Positions 3,329 through 64,000 of a stretch of 64,000 nt of DNA are shown here, one piece after another. Below the pieces are notes generated by a model. That model did not search any database. It had not been told where the DNA came from and saw only the letters and a list, made by a program, of their open reading frames with translations. This DNA is from Microbacterium sp. (GTDB lineage: Bacteria; Actinomycetota; Actinomycetes; Actinomycetales; Microbacteriaceae). Position 1 is the first letter of the stretch. Every line of letters starts with the position of its first letter. The stretch is taken from assembly GCF_044340635.1 (NCBI RefSeq), contig NZ_JBIITF010000004.1, positions 153,731 to 217,730 of the forward strand, read 5' to 3'. Position numbers and translations under genes: made by a program.

Positions 3329-6300
3329 ATGCCCGCGCCCGTCCCCGTGATCTCGTTCCCGCCGGAGCTGCCCGTCAGCGCCGCCCGGGAAGAGATCGCG
3401 CGCGCCATCGAGGGCAACCAGGTCGTGATCGTCGCCGGTGCCACCGGGTCGGGCAAGACGACGCAGTTGCCGAAGATCTGCCTCGAACTCGGCCGCACCC
3501 GCATCGCCCACACGCAGCCGCGGCGGCTCGCGGCGCGGACGATCGCCGAGCGCATCGCCGAAGAGCTCGAGGTGCCCCTCGGCACCCTCGTCGGATACAA
3601 GGTGCGGTTCACCGACAACGTGTCCGACCAGACCCTCGTCGCGCTGATGACCGACGGCATCCTGCTGAACGAGATCCACCGCGACCGGTTGCTGCGCCGC
3701 TACGACACCATCATCATCGACGAGGCTCACGAGCGCAGCCTCAACATCGACTTCCTGCTGGGGTACCTGACGCGGATCCTGCCGGAGCGCCCCGACCTCA
3801 AGATCATCGTCACGTCGGCGACCATCGACCCGCAGAGTTTCGCCGCGCACTTCGCGGATGCCGCGGGCACACCTGCCCCGATCGTCGAGGTGTCGGGGCG
3901 GACGTTCCCCGTCGACATCCGGTACCGCCCTTTGGTGGGCGAGGCGGACATCCCGAAGGATCGATCGGGCCGAGCGGGCGCGGAACGGGCCGACGAGGCG
4001 ACGTCAGCCCCATCGCACCTCCGAGATGTTCGGGGCGGGGAGGTCCCTTCGACAAGCTCAGGGACCGAACACGGCTCACCCACGGTCCCTGAGCCTGTCG
4101 AAGGAACCAGCCGCGCCCCGGTCGACGAGCGTGCGTACGACGTCGACGTCGACGAGGTCGCCGGGATCGTCGCGGCGCTGCGCGAACTCGACCGCGAGGC
4201 ACCGGGCGACGTGCTGGTGTTCCTGCCGGGCGAGGCCGAGATCCGAGATGCCGCCGATGCCGTCCGGGGCGCCTACGCGCAGGGCGCGGCCCCCACCGAG
4301 GTACTCCCGCTGTTCGGACGGCTGTCATCGGCAGACCAGCACCGCGTCTTCGAGCCCTCGCGGGTCGCGGGCGTGCGGCGCCGGGTGGTGCTGGCGACCA
4401 ACGTCGCCGAGACGAGCCTCACGGTGCCCGGCATCCGTTACGTGATCGACGTCGGCACGGCCCGAATGTCGCGCTACAGCAATCGCGCGAAGGTGCAGCG
4501 GCTGCCGATCGAGGCCGTGTCGCAGGCGTCGGCGCAGCAGCGTTCCGGCCGCGCCGGACGTACGAGCCCCGGCATCGCAATCCGCCTGTACGCCGCGGAC
4601 GACTTCGCCAAGCGCCCCGAGTTCACCGAACCCGAGATCCTCCGCACGAGCCTGGCCTCGGTCATCCTGCAGATGCTCTCGCTCGGCTTCGGCGACATCG
4701 AGGCCTTCCCGTTCCTCACCCCGCCGGACTCCCGCGGCGTCAAGGCCGCACTCGACTTGCTCGGCGAGCTCGGCGCCGTGGAACCCGGGCGAGGCGCCCC
4801 GCGCCTCACGCGCATCGGGCGCGACATCGCGCGGATGCCGATCGACCCCCGCTTCGCCCGCATGCTGATCGAGGCGCAGCGCACCGGCGCCATTCACGAG
4901 GTCCTGCCGATCGTCGCGGGCATGTCCATCCAGGATGTCCGCGAGCGCCCCGAAGAGCGCCGCGAAGAGGCAGACCGGTTGCACGCGCGCTTCGCCGATC
5001 CGACGAGCGACTTCCTCGCGCTGCTCAACCTCTGGAATCACCTGCAGGAGGCGCAGCGCGAGAACGGATCGAGCGCGTTCCGGCGCCTGTGCCGCGCCGA
5101 GCACCTCAACTATGTCCGCGTGCGGGAGTGGTTCGACGTGCACCGGCAGATCCGCAGCCTCGTCCCCGCGCAGAAGCGCCCGCGCGAGGGTGCCCGTTCC
5201 GACCGCGCCGGTTCCACCGCCGACGAGCAGGCCCTCGACCCCGCCGCGATCCACCGCGCGATCCTCGCGGGTCTGCTCTCACACATCGGCCTGATCGACG
5301 AGCGCGCCGCGCAGAAGGGCGCCGCCCCAGCCCGCCCCGCACCGGCCTCGGAGTATCTCGGAGCCCGAGGCATCCGATTCGCCATCTTCCCCGGCTCGGG
5401 GCTCCGCAAGGCCCGACCGAAGGCGGTCATGGCCGCCGAGCTGGTCGAGACCTCACGTCTCTACGCCCGCACGGTCGCCGCGATCGATCCCGCCTGGGCC
5501 GAGCCCCTCGCGGGTGATCTGGCGAAGCGCCAGGTCAGCGAGCCGCACTGGTCGAAGGATGCCGGGGCCGCCGTCGCGTTCGAGAAGGTCACGCTCTTCG
5601 GGGTCGAGATCATCCCCCGCCGTCGGGTGCAGTTCGCTCGCATCGACCGCGCTGGCGCACGGGAGCTCTTCGTCCGCCACGCCCTGGTCGAGGGCGAATG
5701 GGATCCGTCGACGATCGACAAGCGCCTGACGAGTTTCGCGCGCGCGAACGACGAGCTGCGCCGCCGCCTCGAGCGGGTCGAAGAGCGCGAGCGTCGGCGC
5801 GACATCCTCGCCGGCGACGAGGCCGTTTTCGCGTTCTACGACGCGCGCATTCCGCGGGAGGTCTTCGACGTCCGGTCCTTCGAGAACTGGTGGCGTGAGG
5901 CATCCGCTCACACGCCCAAACTTCTCACGATGCGCGAGCAGGATCTGCTCGAGGGCGAGGCGCGATCGGATGCGGCGGACTTCCCGACCCGTTGGACCCA
6001 GGGCGATCAGACCCTCACCCTCGCCTACCGGTTCGAGCCGGGTGCACCCGATGACGGGGTCGCGGTGATCGTGCCCCTGGCGCTCCTCGCGAGCGTCCGC
6101 CCGGATGGCTTCGACTGGCAGGTTCCCGGGCTGCGACCGGATCTCGTGACGGCGCTGCTGCGAGCGCTGCCGAAGTCCATCCGGCGACACGTCGTGCCCG
6201 CGGCGGACTGGGCCGCAAGATTCGCCGAAGACCTGGCCGGCGCCGGCCCCGAGAACCACGCGGGTCTTCCCCCGACGTCTCTCGCCACGGCGCTGGCGAA

Positions 6301-7450
6301 GCTCGTGCAGCGGGTCGCCAACCAGCCCGTGACGGTCGATGACTTCGAAATGGACCGGGTTCCCGCGCACCTGCGTCCGACTTTCCGTGTCGTGGACGAG
6401 CGTGGACGCACGGTCGGGTCGGGGCGCGACCTGCGCGAGTTGCAGGAGACCCTGTCGGGCCGTGCGCGCGAGAGCGTCGCGACCCGTCTCGCGGCCCCGC
6501 CATCGACGGGGAAGCCTCGGCGTGGCGCGGGTCCGGCCGCGCTGGTCGATCCGTCGCCGAGCACCGGCGCCTCCGTCCGCGAGCGCGAGGGAATCACCAC
6601 CTGGGACCTCGGTGACCTACCGTCCGTCGTCGATACGCGTGTCGCGGGAGGTGTCGTCCGCGGCTATCCGACACTCGTCGATGACGGCGCGAGTGTTTCG
6701 CTCCGCATCGAGACGACCCCGGATGCCGCCGAGCGAACCTTGCGGGTCGGCATCCGCCGACTCGTGCTGCTCGCCGTGCCCTCGCCCGTTTCGTACGTGC
6801 AGGAGCACTTGACCGCGAACGAGAAGCTCGCCCTCGCCGCCTCGCCGTACGCCTCGGCGAAGGCGCTGATCGAGGATTGCCGTGCGGCGGCTGCGGACAC
6901 GCTGATCGGCACGGTGGCGCCGACCGGCGTGGTCCGCAGCGCTGAGGACTTCGCGCGCGTGCGCGATGCGGTCTCGGCCGGGATCGTCGACGCGATGTTC
7001 GCCGCCGTATCGCTGACCGCCCGCATCCTGTTGGCCGCGCGCAACGTCGACAAGGCCCTTCGCGGGCAGAACGCCATGACCCTGCTGGGTGCTCTCGGCG
7101 ATGTGCGCGCGCAGGTCGCGGGCCTGATCTATCCGGGATTCGTGCTGCAGACCGGCACCGCCCGTCTGCCCCATCTGCTCCGGTATCTCGAGGGCGCGCG
7201 CCTGCGACTCGAGGAGCTCGCCGACACCCCGGGTCGCGATCGCCAGCGAATGACCGAGTTCGAACGGGCTGCCGCCCTGTACGCCGAAGCGGGTGGGACG
7301 ATCCCGGTGAGCCCGGATGCCTCGCCGGCCCTCGTCCACACCCGCTGGTTGCTCGAGGAGTACCGCGTCAGCCTGTTCGCGCAGCGCCTGGGCACTGCGG
7401 AGCCCGTCTCGCTCCCCCGCATCACGAAGGCCCTGCGAGAGGGCTCCTGA
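3329..7450 (+). CDS. hrpA: ATP-dependent RNA helicase HrpA
   Basis: GATGSGKT, DEAH, SAT, ATNVAETS, QRSGRAGR motifs; C-terminal RWLLEEYRVSLFAQRLGT (DUF3418-type). Confidence 0.96.
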   Translation: MPAPVPVISFPPELPVSAAREEIARAIEGNQVVIVAGATGSGKTTQLPKICLELGRTRIAHTQPRRLAARTIAERIAEELEVPLGTLVGYKVRFTDNVSDQTLVALMTDGILLNEIHRDRLLRRYDTIIIDEAHERSLNIDFLLGYLTRILPERPDLKIIVTSATIDPQSFAAHFADAAGTPAPIVEVSGRTFPVDIRYRPLVGEADIPKDRSGRAGAERADEATSAPSHLRDVRGGEVPSTSSGTEHGSPTVPEPVEGTSRAPVDERAYDVDVDEVAGIVAALRELDREAPGDVLVFLPGEAEIRDAADAVRGAYAQGAAPTEVLPLFGRLSSADQHRVFEPSRVAGVRRRVVLATNVAETSLTVPGIRYVIDVGTARMSRYSNRAKVQRLPIEAVSQASAQQRSGRAGRTSPGIAIRLYAADDFAKRPEFTEPEILRTSLASVILQMLSLGFGDIEAFPFLTPPDSRGVKAALDLLGELGAVEPGRGAPRLTRIGRDIARMPIDPRFARMLIEAQRTGAIHEVLPIVAGMSIQDVRERPEERREEADRLHARFADPTSDFLALLNLWNHLQEAQRENGSSAFRRLCRAEHLNYVRVREWFDVHRQIRSLVPAQKRPREGARSDRAGSTADEQALDPAAIHRAILAGLLSHIGLIDERAAQKGAAPARPAPASEYLGARGIRFAIFPGSGLRKARPKAVMAAELVETSRLYARTVAAIDPAWAEPLAGDLAKRQVSEPHWSKDAGAAVAFEKVTLFGVEIIPRRRVQFARIDRAGARELFVRHALVEGEWDPSTIDKRLTSFARANDELRRRLERVEERERRRDILAGDEAVFAFYDARIPREVFDVRSFENWWREASAHTPKLLTMREQDLLEGEARSDAADFPTRWTQGDQTLTLAYRFEPGAPDDGVAVIVPLALLASVRPDGFDWQVPGLRPDLVTALLRALPKSIRRHVVPAADWAARFAEDLAGAGPENHAGLPPTSLATALAKLVQRVANQPVTVDDFEMDRVPAHLRPTFRVVDERGRTVGSGRDLRELQETLSGRARESVATRLAAPPSTGKPRRGAGPAALVDPSPSTGASVREREGITTWDLGDLPSVVDTRVAGGVVRGYPTLVDDGASVSLRIETTPDAAERTLRVGIRRLVLLAVPSPVSYVQEHLTANEKLALAASPYASAKALIEDCRAAAADTLIGTVAPTGVVRSAEDFARVRDAVSAGIVDAMFAAVSLTARILLAARNVDKALRGQNAMTLLGALGDVRAQVAGLIYPGFVLQTGTARLPHLLRYLEGARLRLEELADTPGRDRQRMTEFERAAALYAEAGGTIPVSPDASPALVHTRWLLEEYRVSLFAQRLGTAEPVSLPRITKALREGS
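3944..4033. repeat. 90-bp imperfect hairpin (family A) inside hrpA
   Basis: Left arm GCGGACATCCCGAAGGATCG, right arm GCACCTCCGAGATGTTCGG; same arm spacing (71 nt) and length as the hairpin at 38223-38312. Confidence 0.85.
4046..4104. repeat. REP-like inverted repeat (family B) inside hrpA
   Basis: 22-bp arms CCTTCGACAAGCTCAGGGACCG / CGGTCCCTGAGCCTGTCGAAGG, one mismatch, 15-nt loop. Confidence 0.9.
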
Positions 7451-57772: not shown

Positions 57773-58129
57773 ATGGCCCGCAGAATCGTGCATCAGCTCG
57801 TCGACGACCTCGACGGCACCGTCCTCGACGCTGGAGAGGGTGAGACTGTCCTGTTCTCGCTCGACGGCATCGCGTACGAAATCGACCTCACCGAAGCCAA
57901 CGCCTCGGCGCTGCGCGACACCCTGCAGCCTTACGTCGCAGCCGCGCGTTCCATCTCTTCCCGCACGTCCGGCTCGCAGACCGCGGGCTCACGTCCCCGC
58001 CGCCGGTCGGGTCAGCAGGACTTCGGCGCCATCCGTCAGTGGGCGCGCGAAAACGGCCACCAGGTCTCCGACCGGGGCCGCGTTCCCGCGAACGTCATCG
58101 AGGCTTTCGAAGCCGCACAGGAGTCCTGA
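57773..58129 (+). CDS. lsr2: Lsr2 nucleoid-associated protein
   Basis: [37 protein letters not shown]. Confidence 0.93.
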
Positions 58130-58237: not shown

Positions 58238-58522
58238 ATGCTGACACTCACCGAGAACGCGAGCATGGCCGTCAAGTCCATCGTGGAGCAGGTACCCGAC
58301 GCCCCGGCGGGGGGTCTCCGCATCCGCGACACGGGATTGGCCGAAACCGGATTCGAGCTCGGCGTTTCGCCGCAGCCCGAGACCACTGACGCGGTGGTGG
58401 AAGTCGAGGGCGCACGCGTCTTCCTCGACGCCGGCGCCGCACTGGCACTCGAGGACAAGATCCTCGATGCGCAGATGGAGCAGGACGGCTCCGTCCGTTT
58501 CGCTCTCGCCGTACAGGGCTAG
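58238..58522 (+). CDS. HesB/IscA-fold protein without cysteines
   Basis: MLTLTENA, GGLRI, VEVEGARVFLD, LEDKILDA; AAGGAG RBS. Confidence 0.78.
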   Translation: MLTLTENASMAVKSIVEQVPDAPAGGLRIRDTGLAETGFELGVSPQPETTDAVVEVEGARVFLDAGAALALEDKILDAQMEQDGSVRFALAVQG

Positions 58523-58537
58523 ACCCCCGTACGACAT

Positions 58538-58575
58538 GACGCGGGCCCCGGTGCGAAAGCGCCGGGGCCCGCGTC
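58538..58575 (+). terminator. Intrinsic terminator
   Basis: 17-bp stem GACGCGGGCCCCGGTGC-GAAA-GCGCCGGGGCCCGCGTC followed by GTTTGT. Confidence 0.8.
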
Positions 58576-58699
58576 GTTTGTCCCCCGCACCCCTGCGCTT
58601 ATACACGGCTGCGAGCCGACCGGCAAGGGTGCTTACGACAGCGCCGCCCCGGGATCGAATGGTCCTCGGTCATTTTGCCGAGAGCTGTCAGGGGAATGT

Positions 58700-59866
58700 G
58701 TGTCGCAGTCGTCAGTCCTCACCGAGGGGCGCCCTGTCGCGCCCGGAACGAAACCCGCCGCGGGCATCAAGGACTCCGCCGAGCCGCGAACGATACGGGT
58801 CGCGTCGATCCCTCGGGGTCATGTGTACGTCCGGCATATCGACGCGGACGACGCCATGCCGGGTTATCCGCGTATCGAACGTCTCGCCGATCCCGATCCC
58901 GCGCAGCCGGGCCGGGCGGCCCAGTCTCAGTGGTGGCCGCCGGCGATGCTCGAGGCGGCGTGGGTCCGTTCGCACAGCGAGTTCGATCTCGTGCATCTGC
59001 AGTTCGGGTTCGACGCTCGGAGCCCCGAGCAGCTGCGCGAGTGGATCGAGGCGCTCGACGAGACGGGACGTCCGCTCGTCTACACCGTTCATGACCTGCG
59101 AAATCCCCACCACGACGACTCCGCAGAGCACGACGCTCAGCTCGATGTCCTCGTCCCGACGGCTGCCGCGCTGATCACCCTCACTCCGGGTGCCGCAGCT
59201 GAGATCCGTGAGCGTTGGGGTCGCGAAGCTCACGTGCTGCCGCATCCGCACGTCGTCGACGTCGACACGATGGCACGGATGGCACGGGGCGCATCACGAA
59301 GCGCGGGCGAGTTCCGCGTGGGCGTGCACGTGAAAAGCCTCCGCGCGAATATGGACCCACTGCCGGTCCTCCGCACACTGCGCAGCGCCGTCGCGGATCT
59401 ACCGGGCGCGGTACTTCAGGTGAATGGGCACCGCGACGTTCTTCTGGAGGACGGGGCGCGATACGAACCGACACTCGCCGCCTTCCTGCGCCGGGCGGCG
59501 TCCGACGGCGAGATCGACCTGCGCATCCACGACTTCTTCGACGACGCGCAGCTGTGGGAGTACCTGGGATCGCTCGACGTCTCGGTGCTGCCCTACCGAT
59601 TCGGTACGCATTCCGGCTGGCTCGAGGCATGTCGGGACCTCGGCACGGCGGTCGCGGCACCCACCTGCGGTTACTACGCGGAGCAGGGCGACGTGTTCTC
59701 GTATGAGCACGACGTGCGGGGCCTCGACGAGACTTCGCTCGTCCGCGCCATCCGAGAGGCCTATGACCAGGGGCGCGCAGAACCCCTGTCGATCAGCGCT
59801 CGGCGAGCGCAACGGATGCGCATTGCGCAGGCTCACGCGCGCATCTACGAGGGGTTGCTAGCATGA
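58700..59866 (+). CDS. GT-B glycosyltransferase (GT4-like)
   Basis: DLVHLQFGF, YTVHDLRNPH, VLPYRFGTHSGWLEA; start uncertain. Confidence 0.78.
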   Translation: MSQSSVLTEGRPVAPGTKPAAGIKDSAEPRTIRVASIPRGHVYVRHIDADDAMPGYPRIERLADPDPAQPGRAAQSQWWPPAMLEAAWVRSHSEFDLVHLQFGFDARSPEQLREWIEALDETGRPLVYTVHDLRNPHHDDSAEHDAQLDVLVPTAAALITLTPGAAAEIRERWGREAHVLPHPHVVDVDTMARMARGASRSAGEFRVGVHVKSLRANMDPLPVLRTLRSAVADLPGAVLQVNGHRDVLLEDGARYEPTLAAFLRRAASDGEIDLRIHDFFDDAQLWEYLGSLDVSVLPYRFGTHSGWLEACRDLGTAVAAPTCGYYAEQGDVFSYEHDVRGLDETSLVRAIREAYDQGRAEPLSISARRAQRMRIAQAHARIYEGLLA

Positions 59867-60939
59867 GGCGGCTGCGCGTCTGCCTGATCGCATCGAGCCG
59901 CTTCCCCGTGCGCGAGCCTTTCGCGGGCGGACTCGAGGCGCACATCCATGCGCTCGCCCGGAGTCTGCGCGACCGCGGGCACGAGGTGAGTGTCTTCGCG
60001 GCGCCGGGATCGGATCCCGCCCTCGAAATCCATCCCCTCGATGTCGAGGAGTTCGATGCCTCGAGCGCGGCGCGAGCGGATGTATCCGCTCCCCCGGATG
60101 CCTGGATGCGCGAGCATCATGCCTATCTTTCGCTCATGATCTCGCTCGCTCGCTCGGGCCACGAGCGATTCGACGTCGTGCACAACAACAGCCTTCATCA
60201 CCTGCCCGTCGCCATGGCCTCGACCCTCTCGATCCCCATGGTCACGACACTGCACACGCCTCCGACGCCGTGGCTGGAGTCCGCGCTGAAGTTCGCGCCG
60301 ACCCATTCAGCGTTCGCCGCGGTGAGCGAATTCACGGCAGAGCAATGGAGGCATGTCGTCGACGCGGTCGTCGTCCGCAACGGCATCGACCTGACGCGCT
60401 GGCCGGAGGGGCCCGGCGGCACGGATGCGGTGTGGTTCGGTCGCATCGTGCCGGAGAAGGCACCGCATCTCGCGATCGATGCCGCACGGCGCGCGGGTAT
60501 CGCCATCAACCTGGCGGGTCCCGTGTTCGACAACGACTACTTCGCGCGTGAGATCGAACCTCGCCTCGGGTCGGGCGTGCGGCTTCTGGGACATCTGCAC
60601 AGCTCACAACTTTCTGAGGTGGTTCGCCGCGCACGGGTCACGGTGCTCACGCCGCGGTGGGAGGAGCCGTACGGGCTCGTCGCGGCCGAGTCGATGGCAA
60701 GCGGCACGCCGGTGGCCGCCTTCGCCCGGGGCGGTCTGACTGAGGTGGTGGGCGATGGCGGTGGGTTCCTGGCGGGGCCCGACGACGTCGATGAGCTTCC
60801 GCGTACGATCGTGCGGGCAGCCGAATTGCCGCGCGCCGCGGTGCGGGCACACGCCATGCGGTACCACTCGCTCGACACCATGGTCGCGCAGTACGAATCG
60901 ATCTACACACATCTCGCGTCCGATAGCCGCGCCGCGTGA
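59863..60939 (+). CDS. GT4 glycosyltransferase
   Basis: AGGLE, DVVHNNS, TTLHTPP, GRIVPEKAPH, EEPYGLVAAESMASGTP (EX7E). Confidence 0.9.
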   Translation: MRRLRVCLIASSRFPVREPFAGGLEAHIHALARSLRDRGHEVSVFAAPGSDPALEIHPLDVEEFDASSAARADVSAPPDAWMREHHAYLSLMISLARSGHERFDVVHNNSLHHLPVAMASTLSIPMVTTLHTPPTPWLESALKFAPTHSAFAAVSEFTAEQWRHVVDAVVVRNGIDLTRWPEGPGGTDAVWFGRIVPEKAPHLAIDAARRAGIAINLAGPVFDNDYFAREIEPRLGSGVRLLGHLHSSQLSEVVRRARVTVLTPRWEEPYGLVAAESMASGTPVAAFARGGLTEVVGDGGGFLAGPDDVDELPRTIVRAAELPRAAVRAHAMRYHSLDTMVAQYESIYTHLASDSRAA

Positions 60940-61937
60940 TCGGTTACTACATTCACCACCACGGCCGCGGTCATCTCTCGCGGGCCACCGCCATCGCGCG
61001 CGAGCTGGGAGAGAAGGTGACGGGGCTGTCGTCGTTACCGCGGCCCGATGATTGGCCCGGCGATTGGGTGCACCTGCCCCTCGACGACGCGACGCCGCCA
61101 CGGGATCCGGAGCCCTCGGGGCGCCTGCACTGGGTACCTCTCGGATCCGTTGGACTGCGGCAACGGATGTCCGCCATCTCGGGGTGGCTCGGCGCGCATC
61201 GCCCGCGCGTCGTGGTCGTCGACGTTTCGGTCGAGGTGTGTCTGCTCGTCCGCCTTCACGGCGTGCCCGTCGTGACGTTTGCCCTGCCGGGGCACCGTGC
61301 CGATCCGGCGCACGAGCTCGGCTTCGACGTGGCGACGACGATCCTCGGCGCGTGGCCCCGCGAGGCGGCCGCTGACATCGTCACCGGCCTGTCCGCTCGC
61401 GTGATGAAGCGCATCATCCCGGTCGGGGGCATCTCCCGGTTCGCTCCGTCAGACGACGACGCTCGAACGGACCGAATCCCCCGGGTCTTGGTGCTCTCGG
61501 GGGCGGGCGGGGGTGACTTCTCGGCGCTGTCGATCCAGGAGGCAAGCCGTTCCACCCCGGACTGGGAGTGGGCCCATCTCGGTGGCTCGTCCTCGACCTG
61601 GGTCGCGGATCCCTGGCAGCACCTGCTAGCGGCCGACGTCATCGTGACGCACGCGGGGCAGAACGCCGTTGCCGAGGTCGCCGCCGCGCGCAGGCCCGCC
61701 GTGATCATCCCCCAGGACAGACCGCATGCCGAGCAGCGGACGACGGCACGCGTGCTCGATCAGGGCCCGTGGCCCGCGGTGGTACTGGACGCGGTTCCCG
61801 ACTCGGGCTGGTCCGACATCCTCGAGCGCACGCGGCGGCTCGACGGCAGCGCCTGGCGGGCGTGGAACGACGGAGAGAGCGCCGCACGGGCAGCCCACCA
61901 CATCCGCCGCACCGCCGAGATCGCGGAGAACGATTGA
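60936..61937 (+). CDS. GT-B glycosyltransferase (GT28/GT1-like C-terminal domain)
   Basis: YYIHHHGRGH, LSGAGG, DVIVTHAGQNAVAEV, PQDRPHAEQ. Confidence 0.8.
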   Translation: MIGYYIHHHGRGHLSRATAIARELGEKVTGLSSLPRPDDWPGDWVHLPLDDATPPRDPEPSGRLHWVPLGSVGLRQRMSAISGWLGAHRPRVVVVDVSVEVCLLVRLHGVPVVTFALPGHRADPAHELGFDVATTILGAWPREAAADIVTGLSARVMKRIIPVGGISRFAPSDDDARTDRIPRVLVLSGAGGGDFSALSIQEASRSTPDWEWAHLGGSSSTWVADPWQHLLAADVIVTHAGQNAVAEVAAARRPAVIIPQDRPHAEQRTTARVLDQGPWPAVVLDAVPDSGWSDILERTRRLDGSAWRAWNDGESAARAAHHIRRTAEIAEND

Positions 61938-62773
61938 TGCGCACGGCGATCGTCACGATCGCGCACGGCCGCCACGATCACTGGCTGATGCAGCGCGCGG
62001 CCCTCGCCCGGACGGACGTCGCGTTCGACGAGCAGGTCGTGGTCGCGATCGCCGATCCCGCTTTCGAGACCGTAGCCCGACGGGTGCGAGATACGCCGAC
62101 GCGAGTCATCCACCTCGATGCGCACGCGGAGGGCCTGCCGCTCGCGGCCGCGCGCAACGCCGGCGCTCGAGCGGCGCTCGGCGCGGGAGCCGACCTGCTC
62201 ATCTTTCTGGACGTGGACTGCCTGCCCGGCCCAGAACTGGTCGGCGGATACGTTGACGCGGCCACCGCTGACGCGACGCGCGGGGCCCTGCTCTGCGGTC
62301 CCGTCACGTACCTCGACCCTCCCGGCCCGACCGGGTACGAACTCGAGCTCCTGGATGACTACGACTCGCCGCATCCGGCGCGGCCCGCCCCGCGGCGCGG
62401 CGAAACCCTGCTCGGTGGCCCTCACGAGCTGTTCTGGTCGCTGTCGTTCGCGCTGGACGCCTCGAACTGGGCGCGGATCGGCGGCTTCTGCGAGGACTAC
62501 GTCGGCTACGGCGGCGAAGACACGGATTTCGGCCAGCGCGCCCGCTCATCCGGCGTTCCGCTGGCGTGGGTAGGGGATGCGCGCGCGTACCACCAACACC
62601 ACCCCACGACCGATCCTCCGGTGCAGCATCTGGACGCGATCCTGCGCAACGCGGCCGTCTTCGAATCCCTCTGGGGGTGGTGGCCGATGCAGGGATGGCT
62701 CGACGGATTCGAACGGGCGGGCCTCATCGAACGTGAAGCCGCGGGCACCTACCGCCGCACCAGCACGGGGTAG
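61937..62773 (+). CDS. GT-A (GT2-like) glycosyltransferase
   Basis: LAAARNAGA, DxD in FLDVDC, FWSLSFA, GYGGEDTDF; TGATG overlap. Confidence 0.85.
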   Translation: MRTAIVTIAHGRHDHWLMQRAALARTDVAFDEQVVVAIADPAFETVARRVRDTPTRVIHLDAHAEGLPLAAARNAGARAALGAGADLLIFLDVDCLPGPELVGGYVDAATADATRGALLCGPVTYLDPPGPTGYELELLDDYDSPHPARPAPRRGETLLGGPHELFWSLSFALDASNWARIGGFCEDYVGYGGEDTDFGQRARSSGVPLAWVGDARAYHQHHPTTDPPVQHLDAILRNAAVFESLWGWWPMQGWLDGFERAGLIEREAAGTYRRTSTG

Positions 62774-62779
62774 GACCGG

Positions 62780-63031
62780 TTAGGCGGGGGCTGGATCGCC
62801 TCGGTCGGCATCCACCGGGTCCGTGCGGAAGCCGCTGAGTTTGTGCGTGCCGTCGCACCACGGCTTGATGAGCGAGGCTCCGCACCGGCACAGGGCAACG
62901 GTGCGCCGCTGAGGCTCCAAGACGAGACCGTCGGAGTCGACGATCTCGACGTGCCCGCGAACGATGAGCGGACCGTCCGGATAGGCCTCGATGGACGGAG
63001 TTCGCGCCGCCGAGTCGTTGCTGCTCGTCAT
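62780..63031 (-). CDS. CDGSH iron-sulfur domain protein
   Basis: ALCRCGAS..KPWCDGTH. Confidence 0.9.
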   Translation of the reverse strand: MTSSNDSAARTPSIEAYPDGPLIVRGHVEIVDSDGLVLEPQRRTVALCRCGASLIKPWCDGTHKLSGFRTDPVDADRGDPAPA

Positions 63032-63041
63032 CCGCCCGCCC

Positions 63042-64000
63042 TCACACATCGCGGAGCGAACTGCGGCCGCTCTCGAAAGCCGCGAGCATCTCGTCCCCGA
63101 CCCAGCCGTCGACGGTCAGGCAAGCGGCAGCGCCGAACATGATGTCTCCGAGAAGATCCGGTCGATCCTCGGCGAGTCCACCCGCAAGGTCTCGCCCCGC
63201 GATCTGTTCGTGCACCGCGTCGGCTTCGACATGCTCGTCGAAGTAGTGAGTGGCTTCGGGTCCGAAGCCGAGGCGCCGGAATCCGTCGCCGTACATGCGG
63301 TTCGGCAGCGACGAGGTCATCTCGAACGCCGCGAGATGACCCACGATGGCGCCGACCAGGCGTCGATTCAGACCGAACATCGACATCATGTTCAGCGAGG
63401 CCAGGGTGACGGCCGGCACGGCGTCCAGATACGCACCGTAGGTGTCATCGAGCCCTGCCGCGCGCACGGTTCGCGCGAAGATCCGCGAGTGCATCCGCGA
63501 GAGGTCGCCGCTGCCGTACTCGTCCGACTGGATCTCGACGAGGGCCGCCTTCGACGCGCCCGTCAGGCGAGGGATCGCCCAGGAGTGCGGGTCCGCCTCG
63601 CGAAGCGTGTAGACACTGCGCTGAATCAGGAACTCGCGCAGCTGTTCGCCCGTCGCCTTCTTCGCGACGAATCGCGACAGGCTCGGACCCGGTGTCGGCG
63701 CGGTCAGCGCGAACAGGGCGCGCGCGACCCCGTCGCGGGTCGGTACTGGTGGCGCGGGCGTCTCGACACGCTCGCGCAGCATTTCTTCGAAGGCGCGCTC
63801 CAGCATGCCGCGCGTGGCGATGAGCATGGGATGCCACTCCCAGCCCGCGTCGATGACGTCGAGGGATCCGTAGTGGCTGGCGTAGAGCAAGAACAGGGCG
63901 AGTTGGACGTCGTCGTCGCGGGCCAGGTCGGATGCCTCGGCGAGCGCCCGGGCGGCGAACCCGACCACATCGCCGATCTCGGCCGTAGCGGGGTTCTGTG
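63042..64000 (-). CDS. Iron-containing redox enzyme / heme-oxygenase-like diiron oxidase; 5' end outside the window
   Basis: EIQSDEYGSG...RMHS, HLAAFEMTS, FDEHVEADAVHEQ; frame stays open to the window edge. Confidence 0.85.
   Translation of the reverse strand, partial: QNPATAEIGDVVGFAARALAEASDLARDDDVQLALFLLYASHYGSLDVIDAGWEWHPMLIATRGMLERAFEEMLRERVETPAPPVPTRDGVARALFALTAPTPGPSLSRFVAKKATGEQLREFLIQRSVYTLREADPHSWAIPRLTGASKAALVEIQSDEYGSGDLSRMHSRIFARTVRAAGLDDTYGAYLDAVPAVTLASLNMMSMFGLNRRLVGAIVGHLAAFEMTSSLPNRMYGDGFRRLGFGPEATHYFDEHVEADAVHEQIAGRDLAGGLAEDRPDLLGDIMFGAAACLTVDGWVGDEMLAAFESGRSSLRDV

What the first reader, a model, noticed from the sequence alone, without database searches (positions are those of the whole stretch)
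62780..64000. Heme-oxygenase-like diiron oxidase paired with a CDGSH [2Fe-2S] protein, converging on the GT operon
Seen: HDO ligand pattern (E..EYG..H, E, EH..D..H) followed by a CDGSH protein (CRC..CDGTH); the CDGSH stop lies 6 nt from the last GT stop. Established: HDO enzymes (UndA, SznF, BesC, CADD) carry out N-oxygenation, desaturation or C-C cleavage and need a reductant. Inference: the CDGSH protein is the dedicated electron or iron donor, and the pair may make the aglycone for the four GTs, forming an uncharacterised biosynthetic system.
Basis: partly seen in the sequence, partly recalled or inferred. Interest (0 to 1): 0.68.

Follow-up and report, generated by a model that had tools for sequence, protein, structure and literature searches.

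The report
Diiron oxygenase with CDGSH iron-sulfur partner
A Microbacterium gene for an oxygen-activating diiron enzyme sits with a small iron-sulfur protein gene as a conserved, unstudied pair found in about 40% of sampled actinomycete genomes, whereas the four sugar-transferase genes next to it are an unrelated, movable insert.

Summary
On the minus strand a 352-aa PF14518 heme-oxygenase-like diiron protein (window 63042 to 64100, so it runs 100 nt past the window end) is followed by an 89-aa type-4 CDGSH [2Fe-2S] protein (62780-63049). The CDGSH stop lies 6 nt from the stop of the last glycosyltransferase (GT).

The HDO-CDGSH partnership is strongly supported:
- CDGSH lies beside the HDO in 79 of 80 related loci.
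- Of 401 Actinomycetes genomes, 187 carry the orthologue and 164 of those also carry a CDGSH gene (odds ratio 16).
- The pair stays adjacent in all four gene orientations.
- Six protein clusters are natural HDO-CDGSH fusions.
- This genome has exactly one gene of each.

The link to the four-GT operon is not supported. The cassette is an indel. It is absent in the closest relative (M. lacus SDZm4) and in a second relative, and reduced to one shortened GT in a third. Its distribution across genomes is independent of the HDO.

A different protein is the real recurrent third partner. It is a membrane GT2/GT21-like protein found only in HDO-positive genomes and sometimes fused to the HDO. Here it lies 6.4 kb away, outside the window.

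Substrate and chemistry remain unknown. The fold and the 3-His/4-carboxylate ligand set resemble the N-oxygenases HrmI and SznF. A stress-protective role like that of DtpC is a live rival.

The parts
63042..64000 (-). Heme-oxygenase-like diiron oxidase/oxygenase (HDO) gene. It encodes 352 aa, and the first 100 nt of the gene (the ATG is at window coordinate 64100) lie beyond the window end. The ligand set is 3-His/4-carboxylate: E168, E194, H204, E260, H290, D294, H297.
   Evidence: PF14518 E 8.6e-63. Full ORF read from the genome. PDB sequence matches to SznF, HrmI and RohS. AF2 model pLDDT 95 with TM 0.80-0.83 to HrmI. dN/dS 0.13-0.18.
62780..63049 (-). Type-4 CDGSH [2Fe-2S] protein gene of 89 aa (83 aa from the second ATG at 63031). 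Cluster ligands are C54, C56, C65 and H68. A P-motif (GPLIV) lies upstream and a Lys follows the His ligand. The first ATG overlaps the HDO stop by 8 nt.
   Evidence: PF09360 E 1.6e-18. Best PDB match is 3tbm, the Ralstonia type-4 CISD, at 5.8e-9 (PMC3174974). Found in 79 of 80 HDO loci. dN/dS 0.17-0.38. It is the only CDGSH gene in the genome.
62774..62779 (.). 6-nt spacer between the convergent stop codons of the last GT gene and the CDGSH gene. There is no room for a terminator here. This is the right-hand boundary of the GT cassette indel.
   Evidence: Sequence. Junction alignment with M. lacus SDZm4, where the CDGSH stop is followed by a terminator hairpin and then the 94-aa gene. The CDGSH C-terminal tail here is 7 aa longer than in relatives.
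58700..62773 (+). Four-glycosyltransferase cassette (a GT4-like gene, a GT4, a GT28/GT1-like gene and a GT2-like gene). It is adjacent to the HDO-CDGSH unit but not part of it, and it is a lineage-variable indel.
   Evidence: Pfam. Absent in L015 and L132, and reduced to a 225-aa remnant of the last GT in L131. Its genome distribution is independent of the HDO.
58541..58572 (.). GC-rich hairpin (GCGGGCCCCGG, a 10-nt loop, CCGGGGCCCGC) just after the 94-aa gene. In relatives that lack the cassette, the equivalent hairpin sits between that gene and the CDGSH gene. This marks the left-hand side of the indel.
   Evidence: Sequence. Alignment with the M. lacus SDZm4 junction.

Best explanation
Window 62780-64000, continuing to 64100, holds a self-contained two-gene operon that is conserved across Actinomycetes.

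The first gene encodes an O2-activating diiron enzyme of the heme-oxygenase-like (HDO) superfamily. Its fold and 3-His/4-carboxylate ligand set are those of the N-oxygenating members HrmI and SznF. The second gene is probably translationally coupled to it and encodes a homodimeric type-4 CDGSH [2Fe-2S] protein.

Proposed mechanism:
- The CDGSH protein docks on the HDO and passes single electrons to it. These re-reduce the diferric site to diferrous after each turnover.
- The diferrous site binds O2, forms a peroxo-diiron intermediate, and oxidises a substrate. The substrate is unidentified; an amine-bearing small molecule or a membrane-associated one is most likely.

Shown here: gene identity, fold, ligand conservation, the partnership of the two genes, and their independence from the GT cassette.
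Inferred: electron transfer as the role of CDGSH, N-oxygenation as the chemistry, and the nature of the substrate.

The four glycosyltransferase genes that converge on the pair are an unrelated cassette that has come and gone at this spot. The genuine recurrent accessory genes of the module are a membrane GT2/GT21-like protein and, in other lineages, SAM methyltransferases. In this genome the GT2/GT21-like protein lies 6.4 kb upstream of the HDO at G000:C7:224230-225186, outside the window.
For: Identity and fold:
- PF14518 and PF09360 matches.
- All seven ligands align with those of SznF and are kept in 88-98% of 52 relatives.
- The AF2 model has pLDDT 95 and pTM 0.92. The best PDB match is HrmI at TM 0.80-0.83, followed by SznF, FlcD, RohS and CADD.
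- McBride 2021 tentatively assigns HDOs that carry the extra Glu as N-oxygenases (PMC7848743).

Partnership:
- CDGSH is present in 79 of 80 genome loci. It is directly downstream in 56, separated by one intervening gene in 17, and on the other strand in 6.
- At class level the 2x2 table is 164 / 23 / 66 / 148, giving odds ratio 16 and p = 1e-32.
- Coordinates show adjacency as HDO>CDGSH, CDGSH>HDO, convergent (for example Mycolicibacterium) and divergent.
- Six distinct 90%-identity clusters are single-chain HDO-CDGSH fusions of 427-517 aa, from several sources.
- This genome has one HDO gene and one CDGSH gene.
- Both genes are under purifying selection.

Independence from the GT cassette.

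True accessory genes:
- The GT2/GT21-like protein lies beside the HDO in 26 of 80 loci.
- It occurs in 30 of 401 genomes, all of them HDO-positive (p = 3e-11).
- It is fused to the HDO in a 785-aa ORF (L130).
- A homologue exists in this genome.
- Methyltransferases directly precede the HDO in two other families.
Against:
- Electron donation is inferred from the general chemistry of CDGSH and diiron proteins. An upstream reductase for the CDGSH protein was not found; a FAD-Rieske neighbour is rare.
- CDGSH is not exclusive to the HDO. Sixty-six genomes have CDGSH without this HDO, and 23 have the HDO without CDGSH.
- HrmI, the closest fold match, is listed as 3H/3C in the 2026 review (PMC13108848). 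The extra Glu is therefore an imperfect marker of N-oxygenation.
- The gene does not sit in a recognisable biosynthetic cluster.
- Stress genes recur nearby: Mn catalase within 6 kb in 13 of 80 loci across 6 genera, plus DUF3618/YtxH, DUF4383, Hsp20 and CsbD. This fits a protective role as well as a biosynthetic one.
Confidence: 0.62

Rival explanations
1. Stress-protection system rather than biosynthesis. The HDO-CDGSH pair would consume O2 or H2O2, or sequester iron, using electrons delivered by the CDGSH protein. This is analogous to rubredoxin with rubrerythrin, and to the HDO-domain protein DtpC of Acinetobacter baumannii, which is co-transcribed with katE and limits H2O2 during desiccation.
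For: - DtpC precedent (PMC13232832).
- Mn catalase lies within 6 kb in 13 of 80 loci across 6 genera. Chance is roughly 0.3% per locus (my estimate).
- KatE is in the Glycomyces locus.
- CsbD and trehalose synthase flank a 45%-identical relative.
- DUF3618/YtxH, DUF4383, Holin-X and Hsp20 are recurrent neighbours.
- A DUF3618-like gene lies divergently upstream in this genome.
- The gene is single-copy and present in 47% of Actinomycetes genomes, outside biosynthetic clusters.
Against: - Only 18 of 80 loci have any stress-type neighbour.
- This genome has no Mn catalase.
- Recurrent, exclusive and sometimes fused GT2-like and methyltransferase partners point to a small-molecule or lipid substrate.
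- The SigB/SigF-type promoter motif was found upstream in only 3 of 80 loci.
Confidence: 0.25
2. The CDGSH protein is not an electron donor. Instead it would be an iron or cluster donor, or a redox or iron sensor, that loads or gates the labile diiron site of the HDO.
For: - NEET-type CDGSH clusters are labile and can be transferred (established knowledge; PMC6006223 abstract).
- HDO cofactors are notably labile (PMC13108848).
- The comparative evidence for partnership does not discriminate between donating electrons and donating metal.
Against: - A [2Fe-2S] cluster is not the cofactor the HDO needs.
- A stoichiometric fusion to the enzyme suits a repeated catalytic role better than one-off loading.
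- 23 HDO-positive genomes manage without any CDGSH protein.
Confidence: 0.15
3. One reading: the HDO and CDGSH protein make an aglycone that the four convergent glycosyltransferases decorate, so that all six genes form one biosynthetic system.
For: - Physical adjacency, with the stop codons 6 nt apart.
- One relative (L131) still has the last GT next to the CDGSH gene.
Against: - The cassette is absent from none-to-two-partial-match 80 HDO loci: no locus carries the operon.
- It is missing from the two collinear relatives L015 and L132 and mostly deleted in L131, while the HDO-CDGSH pair stays under purifying selection.
- Its distribution across genomes is independent of the HDO (Fisher p = 1.0), and in G011 the two are 420 kb apart.
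- The two units are transcribed convergently with no shared promoter.
Confidence: 0.04

Closest known systems
HrmI (L-lysine N6-oxygenase, hormaomycin pathway; PDB 9N1A/9N1X/9NH9)
   Same: Best structural match, with TM 0.80-0.83 over about 346 columns. Similar size (about 340-360 aa), including the N-terminal helices that precede the PF14518 core. Same His/carboxylate diiron ligands.
   Different: Only about 20% identical. HrmI sits in a natural-product gene cluster, has a known amino-acid substrate and has no CDGSH partner described. It is listed as 3H/3C in the 2026 review, whereas this protein also has the SznF-type extra Glu.
SznF central HDO domain (streptozotocin pathway; PDB 6VZY) with the methyltransferase SznE
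   Same: Best sequence match in the PDB (E 1.4e-7). All seven ligands align, including Glu189 and the aux-alpha2 turn motif (here LREADPH). In some other lineages a methyltransferase directly precedes the orthologue, which resembles SznE/SznF.
   Different: SznF is a three-domain protein with a cupin domain, whereas this protein is a stand-alone HDO. There is no methyltransferase next to it in this genome. No guanidine or nitrosourea context.
Type-4 CDGSH iron-sulfur domain proteins (RsCISD of Ralstonia solanacearum, PDB 3TBM; Lin et al. 2011)
   Same: Same length class, with the CxC...CDG(S/T)H motif, the upstream GP-hydrophobic P-motif and a Lys after the His ligand. Lin et al. list a Clavibacter (Microbacteriaceae) member.
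   Different: That paper gives no function or gene context for type-4 CISDs (no hits for operon, neighbour or oxygenase). The systematic pairing with an HDO shown here is additional.
DtpC of Acinetobacter baumannii (HDO-domain desiccation-tolerance protein co-transcribed with katE; PLoS One 2026, PMC13232832)
   Same: An HDO-fold protein outside any biosynthetic cluster, linked to a catalase gene and to oxidative or desiccation stress. Ligand residues are needed for its function. Relatives of the protein studied here often lie near Mn catalase and stress genes.
   Different: No CDGSH partner is mentioned for DtpC (0 occurrences). Sequence relationship to this protein was not tested. No catalase lies next to this gene in this genome.
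Rubrerythrin or flavodiiron proteins with rubredoxin; multicomponent diiron oxygenases with ferredoxins
   Same: Same logic: a diiron oxygen- or peroxide-reactive protein encoded next to, or fused to, a small dedicated one-electron iron-sulfur carrier.
   Different: Different folds for both components (ferritin-like or flavodiiron versus HO-like; rubredoxin or ferredoxin versus CDGSH). This is a working analogy recalled from general knowledge and was not tested here.

Membership tests
Heme-oxygenase-like diiron oxidase/oxygenase (HDO) superfamily, Pfam PF14518 | Sequence match to the family model above the curated threshold | tested here: met
   211.8 bits against a cut-off of 28.9, E 8.6e-63.
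Heme-oxygenase-like diiron oxidase/oxygenase (HDO) superfamily, Pfam PF14518 | All-helical heme-oxygenase-like fold | tested here: met
   AF2 model with pLDDT 95, all-helical. Foldseek TM 0.80-0.83 to HrmI, and also matches SznF, RohS, CADD, BesC and UndA. This is a predicted structure, not a solved one.
Heme-oxygenase-like diiron oxidase/oxygenase (HDO) superfamily, Pfam PF14518 | 3 His + 3 carboxylate ligands on the three core helices | tested here: met
   E194, H204, E260, H290, D294 and H297 align with SznF Glu215, His225, Glu281, His311, Asp315 and His318. Each is kept in 46-51 of 52 relatives.
Heme-oxygenase-like diiron oxidase/oxygenase (HDO) superfamily, Pfam PF14518 | Binds two Fe (or Fe/Mn) ions and activates O2 | not testable with these tools
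   Needs purified protein, metal analysis, Moessbauer or stopped-flow measurements.
N-oxygenating HDO subgroup (SznF, RohS, HrmI/BelK) | Extra carboxylate ligand from auxiliary helix 2 (3H/4C), used by McBride et al. 2021 as a tentative marker | tested here: met
   E168 aligns with SznF Glu189 and is Glu in 47 of 52 relatives. The marker is tentative (PMC7848743), and HrmI is listed as 3H/3C.
N-oxygenating HDO subgroup (SznF, RohS, HrmI/BelK) | Demonstrated N-oxygenation of an amine or guanidine substrate | not testable with these tools
   No substrate is known.
N-oxygenating HDO subgroup (SznF, RohS, HrmI/BelK) | Location in a natural-product gene cluster that supplies the amine substrate | tested here: not met
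   Neighbours in this genome are a DUF3618-like stress protein, an SRPBCC protein, an ABC1 kinase, a flavodoxin-like protein and a TetR regulator. No NRPS, PKS or amino-acid-tailoring genes were seen. The gene is single-copy in 47% of Actinomycetes genomes.
Type-4 CDGSH iron-sulfur domain proteins (Pfam PF09360; Lin et al. 2011) | C-x-C-x(n)-C-D-G-[ST]-H cluster-binding motif (3 Cys + 1 His) | tested here: met
   CRCGASLIKPWCDGTH. PF09360 at 67.1 bits against a cut-off of 29.5. The strict motif is present in 78 of 80 related loci.
Type-4 CDGSH iron-sulfur domain proteins (Pfam PF09360; Lin et al. 2011) | Single motif preceded by N-terminal beta-strands and a P-motif (GP-hydrophobic-x-hydrophobic); Lys or Arg after the His ligand | tested here: met
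   DGPLIV lies upstream of the motif and K69 follows H68. The best PDB match is the type-4 RsCISD 3tbm over residues 20-74.
Type-4 CDGSH iron-sulfur domain proteins (Pfam PF09360; Lin et al. 2011) | Homodimer binding one [2Fe-2S] cluster per subunit | not testable with these tools
   Needs purified protein, UV-vis or EPR spectroscopy, or a structure.
DtpC-type protective HDO (A. baumannii) | Co-transcription with a catalase gene | tested here: not met
   No catalase lies within the 20 kb read around the gene, and this genome has no Mn catalase. In relatives, Mn catalase lies within 6 kb in 13 of 80 loci.
DtpC-type protective HDO (A. baumannii) | Sequence orthology to DtpC | not tested
   The DtpC sequence (UniProt D0C8B3, cited in PMC13232832) was not available to the tools.
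   None of the 80 loci carries the four-GT operon; only two isolated partial matches were found. The cassette is absent or decayed in the three closest relatives. Fisher p = 1.0 in 41 genomes.

The most novel reading that the evidence does not exclude
Type-4 CDGSH proteins would be the native, dedicated electron-transfer partners of a large and unstudied clade of heme-oxygenase-like diiron oxygenases. This would be the first physiological reductase partner assigned to an HDO and the first function assigned to a prokaryotic CDGSH protein. The module is present in roughly 40% of sampled Actinomycetes, including Mycolicibacterium. With its optional membrane GT2-like and methyltransferase partners, it would make or modify an as yet unknown N-oxygenated, possibly glycosylated, metabolite or envelope component under stress.
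Probability: 0.33. Interest if true: 0.75.

Novelty: new variant of a known kind. Interest (0 to 1): 0.55.

Why it matters
HDO enzymes (UndA, SznF, BesC, HrmI, AetD) have become a major source of unusual oxidative chemistry. They are usually assayed with chemical reductants, and the 2026 mini-review searched here never uses the words reductant, ferredoxin or electron donor.

Prokaryotic CDGSH proteins have solved structures, but the structural paper read here (PMC3174974) assigns the type-4 class no function or gene context. Full-text searches combining CDGSH with HDO terms, with Streptomyces or with Mycobacterium found no paper that links the two families.

A gene pair that is conserved, rearrangement-proof and sometimes fused gives both questions a concrete, testable system in easily handled laboratory actinomycetes. 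It also flags a very common actinobacterial gene of unknown function.

For genome annotation, this case shows that tight convergent spacing (6 nt here) can be an accident of cassette insertion and need not signal a functional link.

Tried and rejected
- SigB/SigF-type stress promoter (G[GT]TT-N14-18-GGGTA) upstream of the HDO. Found in only 3 of 80 loci and not in this genome. Not supported for Micrococcales, although notes from other genomes in this scan report it.
- A FAD-Rieske oxidoreductase as the upstream reductase, seen next to the pair in Glycomyces. Found in only 2 of the held loci, and in this genome it lies on another contig. Not a general partner.
- Base composition as a sign of horizontal origin for the GT cassette. 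GC is 0.67-0.72 throughout, with no anomaly.
- Intrinsic terminator between the CDGSH gene and the last GT. None was found, and there is no room in 6 nt.
- NCBIfam gives no named family for the HDO or the CDGSH protein.
- Literature searches returned nothing relevant: CDGSH with 'heme-oxygenase-like', with 'iron-containing redox enzyme', with Streptomyces, or with Mycobacterium. One search was badly framed and wasted. A CDGSH gene drawn near AlkB in Rhodococcus (PMC11854999) was uninformative.
- The search for related loci with the 52-sequence alignment failed for lack of a conserved stretch. It was rerun with 15 closer sequences, so the 80-locus survey is biased towards Micrococcales. The class-level search compensates for this.
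- Apparent fusions of the HDO with GCS2 or trypsin domains (P0234, P0236) were not followed up and may be assembly or gene-calling artefacts.
Full report
**What is in the sequence**

The window lies in a 3.27-Mb Microbacterium genome at G000:C7:153731-217730. The closest named relative is M. lacus SDZm4.

On the minus strand an ORF runs from 63042 past the window end. Reading the contig beyond the window (L001) gives a 352-aa protein, P0001. It starts at an ATG 100 nt outside the window. That ATG and a GGGGGA ribosome-binding site are conserved in three close relatives.

P0001 matches Pfam PF14518 (Haem_oxygenas_2, 'iron-containing redox enzyme') at E 8.6e-63. Directly downstream, ORF 62780-63049 encodes an 89-aa protein that matches PF09360 (zf-CDGSH) at E 1.6e-18.
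- The first ATG of this ORF overlaps the HDO stop by 8 nt (ATGTGTGA). A second ATG lies 18 nt further on and aligns better with relatives.
- The CDGSH stop (62780-62782) lies 6 nt from the stop (62771-62773) of the last of four plus-strand glycosyltransferase genes at 58700-62773.

**The two proteins**

The best sequence matches of the HDO among solved structures are SznF (E 1.4e-7), HrmI (4.7e-7) and RohS (1.4e-5). All three are N-oxygenases. BesC follows weakly.
- In the SznF alignment, E168, E194, H204, E260, H290, D294 and H297 fall on SznF Glu189, Glu215, His225, Glu281, His311, Asp315 and His318.
- This is the 3-His/4-carboxylate set. McBride et al. 2021 found the extra Glu189 in about 25% of HDOs and used it to assign them tentatively as N-oxygenases (PMC7848743). 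A 2026 review repeats this but lists HrmI as 3H/3C (PMC13108848).
- Across 52 family members that are 35-67% identical to P0001, each ligand is kept in 46-51 sequences.
- An AlphaFold2 model built on that alignment is confident (pLDDT 95, pTM 0.92). Its best Foldseek match in the PDB is HrmI (TM 0.80-0.83, about 20% identity), followed by SznF, FlcD, RohS and CADD.

The CDGSH protein has the features that define type-4 CISDs in Lin et al. 2011 (PMC3174974).
- It carries the 3-Cys/1-His motif CRC...CDGTH, an upstream GPLIV 'P-motif' and a Lys after the His ligand.
- Its best PDB match is the type-4 Ralstonia protein 3TBM.
- Lin et al. give no function or gene context for this type.

NCBIfam has no named model for either protein. 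Both genes are under purifying selection against three relatives: dN/dS is 0.13-0.18 for the HDO and 0.17-0.38 for CDGSH. This genome has exactly one PF14518 gene and one CDGSH gene.

**Is the HDO-CDGSH pairing real?**

Yes, on four independent lines of evidence.

(i) Local gene order. In 80 loci from different species (54-88% HDO identity, mostly Micrococcales plus Glycomyces and others), a CDGSH gene lies in the locus in 79.
- It is immediately downstream on the same strand in 56, downstream with one gene between in 17, and on the other strand in 6.
- The single exception ends about 1 kb after the HDO, inside that intervening gene.

(ii) Phylogenetic profile. In 401 evenly drawn Actinomycetes genomes, a strong orthologue (E 1e-73 or better) is present in 187 and a CDGSH gene in 230.
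- The 2x2 table is 164 / 23 / 66 / 148, giving odds ratio 16 and Fisher p = 1e-32.

(iii) Robustness to rearrangement. The coordinates printed show the two genes adjacent in all four arrangements.
- HDO then CDGSH, for example in Microbacterium and genus g88.
- CDGSH then HDO, in many g48, g65 and g83 genomes.
- Convergent, for example in g62, which one search identifies as Mycolicibacterium, and in g38, g41 and g128.
- Divergent, in G332, G397 and G025.

(iv) Gene fusion. Six distinct 90%-identity protein clusters carry both domains in one chain.
- They are P0144 and P0391-P0395, are 427-517 aa long and 53-79% identical to one another, and come from several sources including an NCBI Dermatophilaceae MAG.

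The pairing is not absolute.
- Sixty-six genomes have CDGSH without this HDO. Many of them are small genomes of one family.
- Twenty-three have the HDO without CDGSH. In the four genomes of family f55 that were inspected, a SAM methyltransferase is operonic with the HDO instead.

**Is the four-GT operon part of the system?**

No.
- tblastn with the four GTs against the 80 loci found only two isolated partial matches and no operon.
- M. lacus SDZm4 (HDO 88% identical) is collinear with this genome on both sides but lacks window 58521-62800 completely. There the CDGSH stop is followed by a terminator hairpin and then by the convergent 94-aa gene. A 77%-identical relative (L132) has the same empty arrangement.
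- An 83%-identical relative (L131) retains only a shortened last GT (225 aa). The segment equivalent to window ~58621-61989, holding the first three GTs, is missing.
- In this genome the hairpin lies at 58541-58572, on the far side of the cassette.
- The CDGSH C-terminus here is 7 aa longer than in relatives, and its stop falls in what aligns with the former hairpin arm.
- The 6-nt spacing is therefore the scar of a cassette boundary and not a co-evolved arrangement.
- Among 41 related genomes, the cassette (first and third GT searched; always about 2 kb apart) occurs in 8 and the HDO in 12. They overlap in 2, against 2.3 expected (Fisher p = 1.0). In the other shared genome (G011) they lie 420 kb apart.

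**The real accessory partners**

Clustering the neighbours in the 80 loci revealed a protein of about 320-350 aa lying either between the HDO and the CDGSH gene or just after the CDGSH gene.
- It gives weak matches to GT2 and GT21 models and to HpnI, and it has hydrophobic C-terminal segments.
- It lies beside the HDO in 26 of 80 loci.
- At class level it occurs in 30 of 401 genomes. All 30 are HDO-positive (hypergeometric p = 3e-11), and it usually lies directly 3' of the HDO.
- In one genome (L130) it is fused to the HDO in a single 785-aa ORF.
- This Microbacterium has a homologue (49% identity) at C7:224230-225186 on the minus strand, 6.4 kb upstream of the HDO and outside the window.
- Among 41 relatives it occurs only in HDO-positive genomes: 4 of 12 against 0 of 29 (p = 0.005).
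- In two other actinomycete families, different SAM methyltransferases directly precede the HDO.

The partners are other genes, though, and they are optional: about 16% of HDO-positive genomes have the GT2-like protein.

**What does it do?**

The substrate is unknown.

Three points favour a small-molecule or envelope-modifying oxygenase:
- the N-oxygenase-like fold and ligand set;
- accessory GT2-like and methyltransferase partners that are exclusive to the HDO and sometimes fused to it;
- a dedicated one-electron carrier, as expected for an enzyme whose diferric site must be re-reduced at each turnover.

Other points favour a protective role:
- The gene is single-copy, present in 47% of Actinomycetes genomes, and not in a biosynthetic cluster.
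- Mn catalase lies within 6 kb in 13 of 80 loci from six genera. KatE is in the Glycomyces locus.
- CsbD and trehalose synthase flank a 45% relative.
- DUF3618/YtxH, DUF4383, Holin-X and Hsp20 genes recur nearby. A DUF3618-like gene is the divergent neighbour in this genome.
- A 2026 paper shows that DtpC, an HDO-domain protein of A. baumannii co-transcribed with katE, limits H2O2 during desiccation. It calls this the first HDO linked to stress (PMC13232832).

Only 18 of 80 loci have such neighbours, however, and the SigB/SigF-type promoter was not found in Micrococcales.

I therefore commit to the oxygenase-plus-electron-donor model at moderate confidence. I keep the DtpC-like model, and an iron-donor or sensor role for CDGSH, as live rivals.

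**Known or new?**

Full-text searches found no paper that combines CDGSH with HDO terms, or with 'iron-containing redox enzyme'. CDGSH combined with Streptomyces or with Mycobacterium gave nothing relevant. All homologues are annotated only as 'iron-containing redox enzyme family protein' or as hypothetical.

Earlier notes of this scan, from other genomes, had already flagged the same module in its HDO + CDGSH + GT2 and methyltransferase + CDGSH + HDO forms. I reached the same picture independently before reading them. They are not independent evidence.

The finding is thus a new variant of a known kind: an HDO clade with a previously undescribed CDGSH partner. This particular locus adds the lesson that the neighbouring GT operon is a red herring.

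**Limits**
- There is no biochemistry.
- The 80-locus survey is biased towards Micrococcales.
- The class-level genomes are anonymous apart from the one genus identified.
- Adjacency counts at class level were read from the printed coordinates only.

Noticed in passing
Just outside the window: G000:C7:217858 (+), 217952 (-, TTGCCA variant), 218520 (-), 225691 (+), equal to window coordinates 64128, 64222, 64790 and 71961: An extended -35-like element GGGGnTTGACA occurs 8 times in the genome (6.6 expected), but 3 exact copies and one near copy cluster within 8 kb around the HDO (Poisson p about 1e-6). Two of them form a conserved inverted pair between the HDO and the divergent DUF3618-like gene in four related genomes. 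They could be divergent promoters or operator sites for a local regulator.
   Followed up: partly
G000:C7:224230-225186 (-), L001 13231-14187, window coordinates about 70500-71456 (outside the window): Homologue of the membrane GT2/GT21-like protein that elsewhere sits inside the HDO-CDGSH operon or is fused to the HDO. In this genome it is detached, 6.4 kb upstream.
   Followed up: yes
L131 9063-9740 (metagenome contig of an 83%-identical relative), versus window 58621-62773: The four-GT cassette is caught in decay. Only a 225-aa version of the last GT remains next to the CDGSH gene, and the first three GTs are deleted.
   Followed up: yes
L130 (G042:C59:23000-36000), ORF 5065-7422, with genes upstream: A 785-aa ORF fuses the HDO to the GT21-like domain. 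It is preceded by a SAM methyltransferase and by what look like gas-vesicle protein genes (GvpA/J-like and GvpF/L-like sequences), and a convergent CDGSH gene follows.
   Followed up: partly
L134-L137 (family f55 genomes G140, G232, G244, G403): In this family the HDO orthologue has a longer N-terminus (about 395-418 aa). In L134 and L137 it is directly preceded on the same strand by a SAM methyltransferase of about 300-330 aa, in L136 the methyltransferase is adjacent and divergent, and L135 has only a partial match. The genomes lack any CDGSH gene, so an unidentified reductant must serve there.
   Followed up: partly
window 62780-62803 (3' end of the CDGSH gene): The CDGSH protein here ends ...DPVDADRGDPAPA, 7 residues longer than in its closest relatives (...DPVDHD). 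The extra codons align with the former terminator-hairpin arm, so the cassette boundary appears to have remodelled the gene's 3' end.
   Followed up: yes
window 57773-58129 (+) and 58238-58522 (+): An Lsr2-type nucleoid protein gene and a conserved 94-aa gene with no Pfam match flank the cassette on the left. Both are syntenic in relatives whether or not the cassette is present.
   Followed up: no
L095 (metagenome contig), 4447-7240: A 38%-identical HDO relative (P0184) has no CDGSH neighbour. It is followed by a carbamoyltransferase and a NACHT/FGE-sulfatase protein, so this is a different sub-family with a more biosynthetic-looking context.
   Followed up: no
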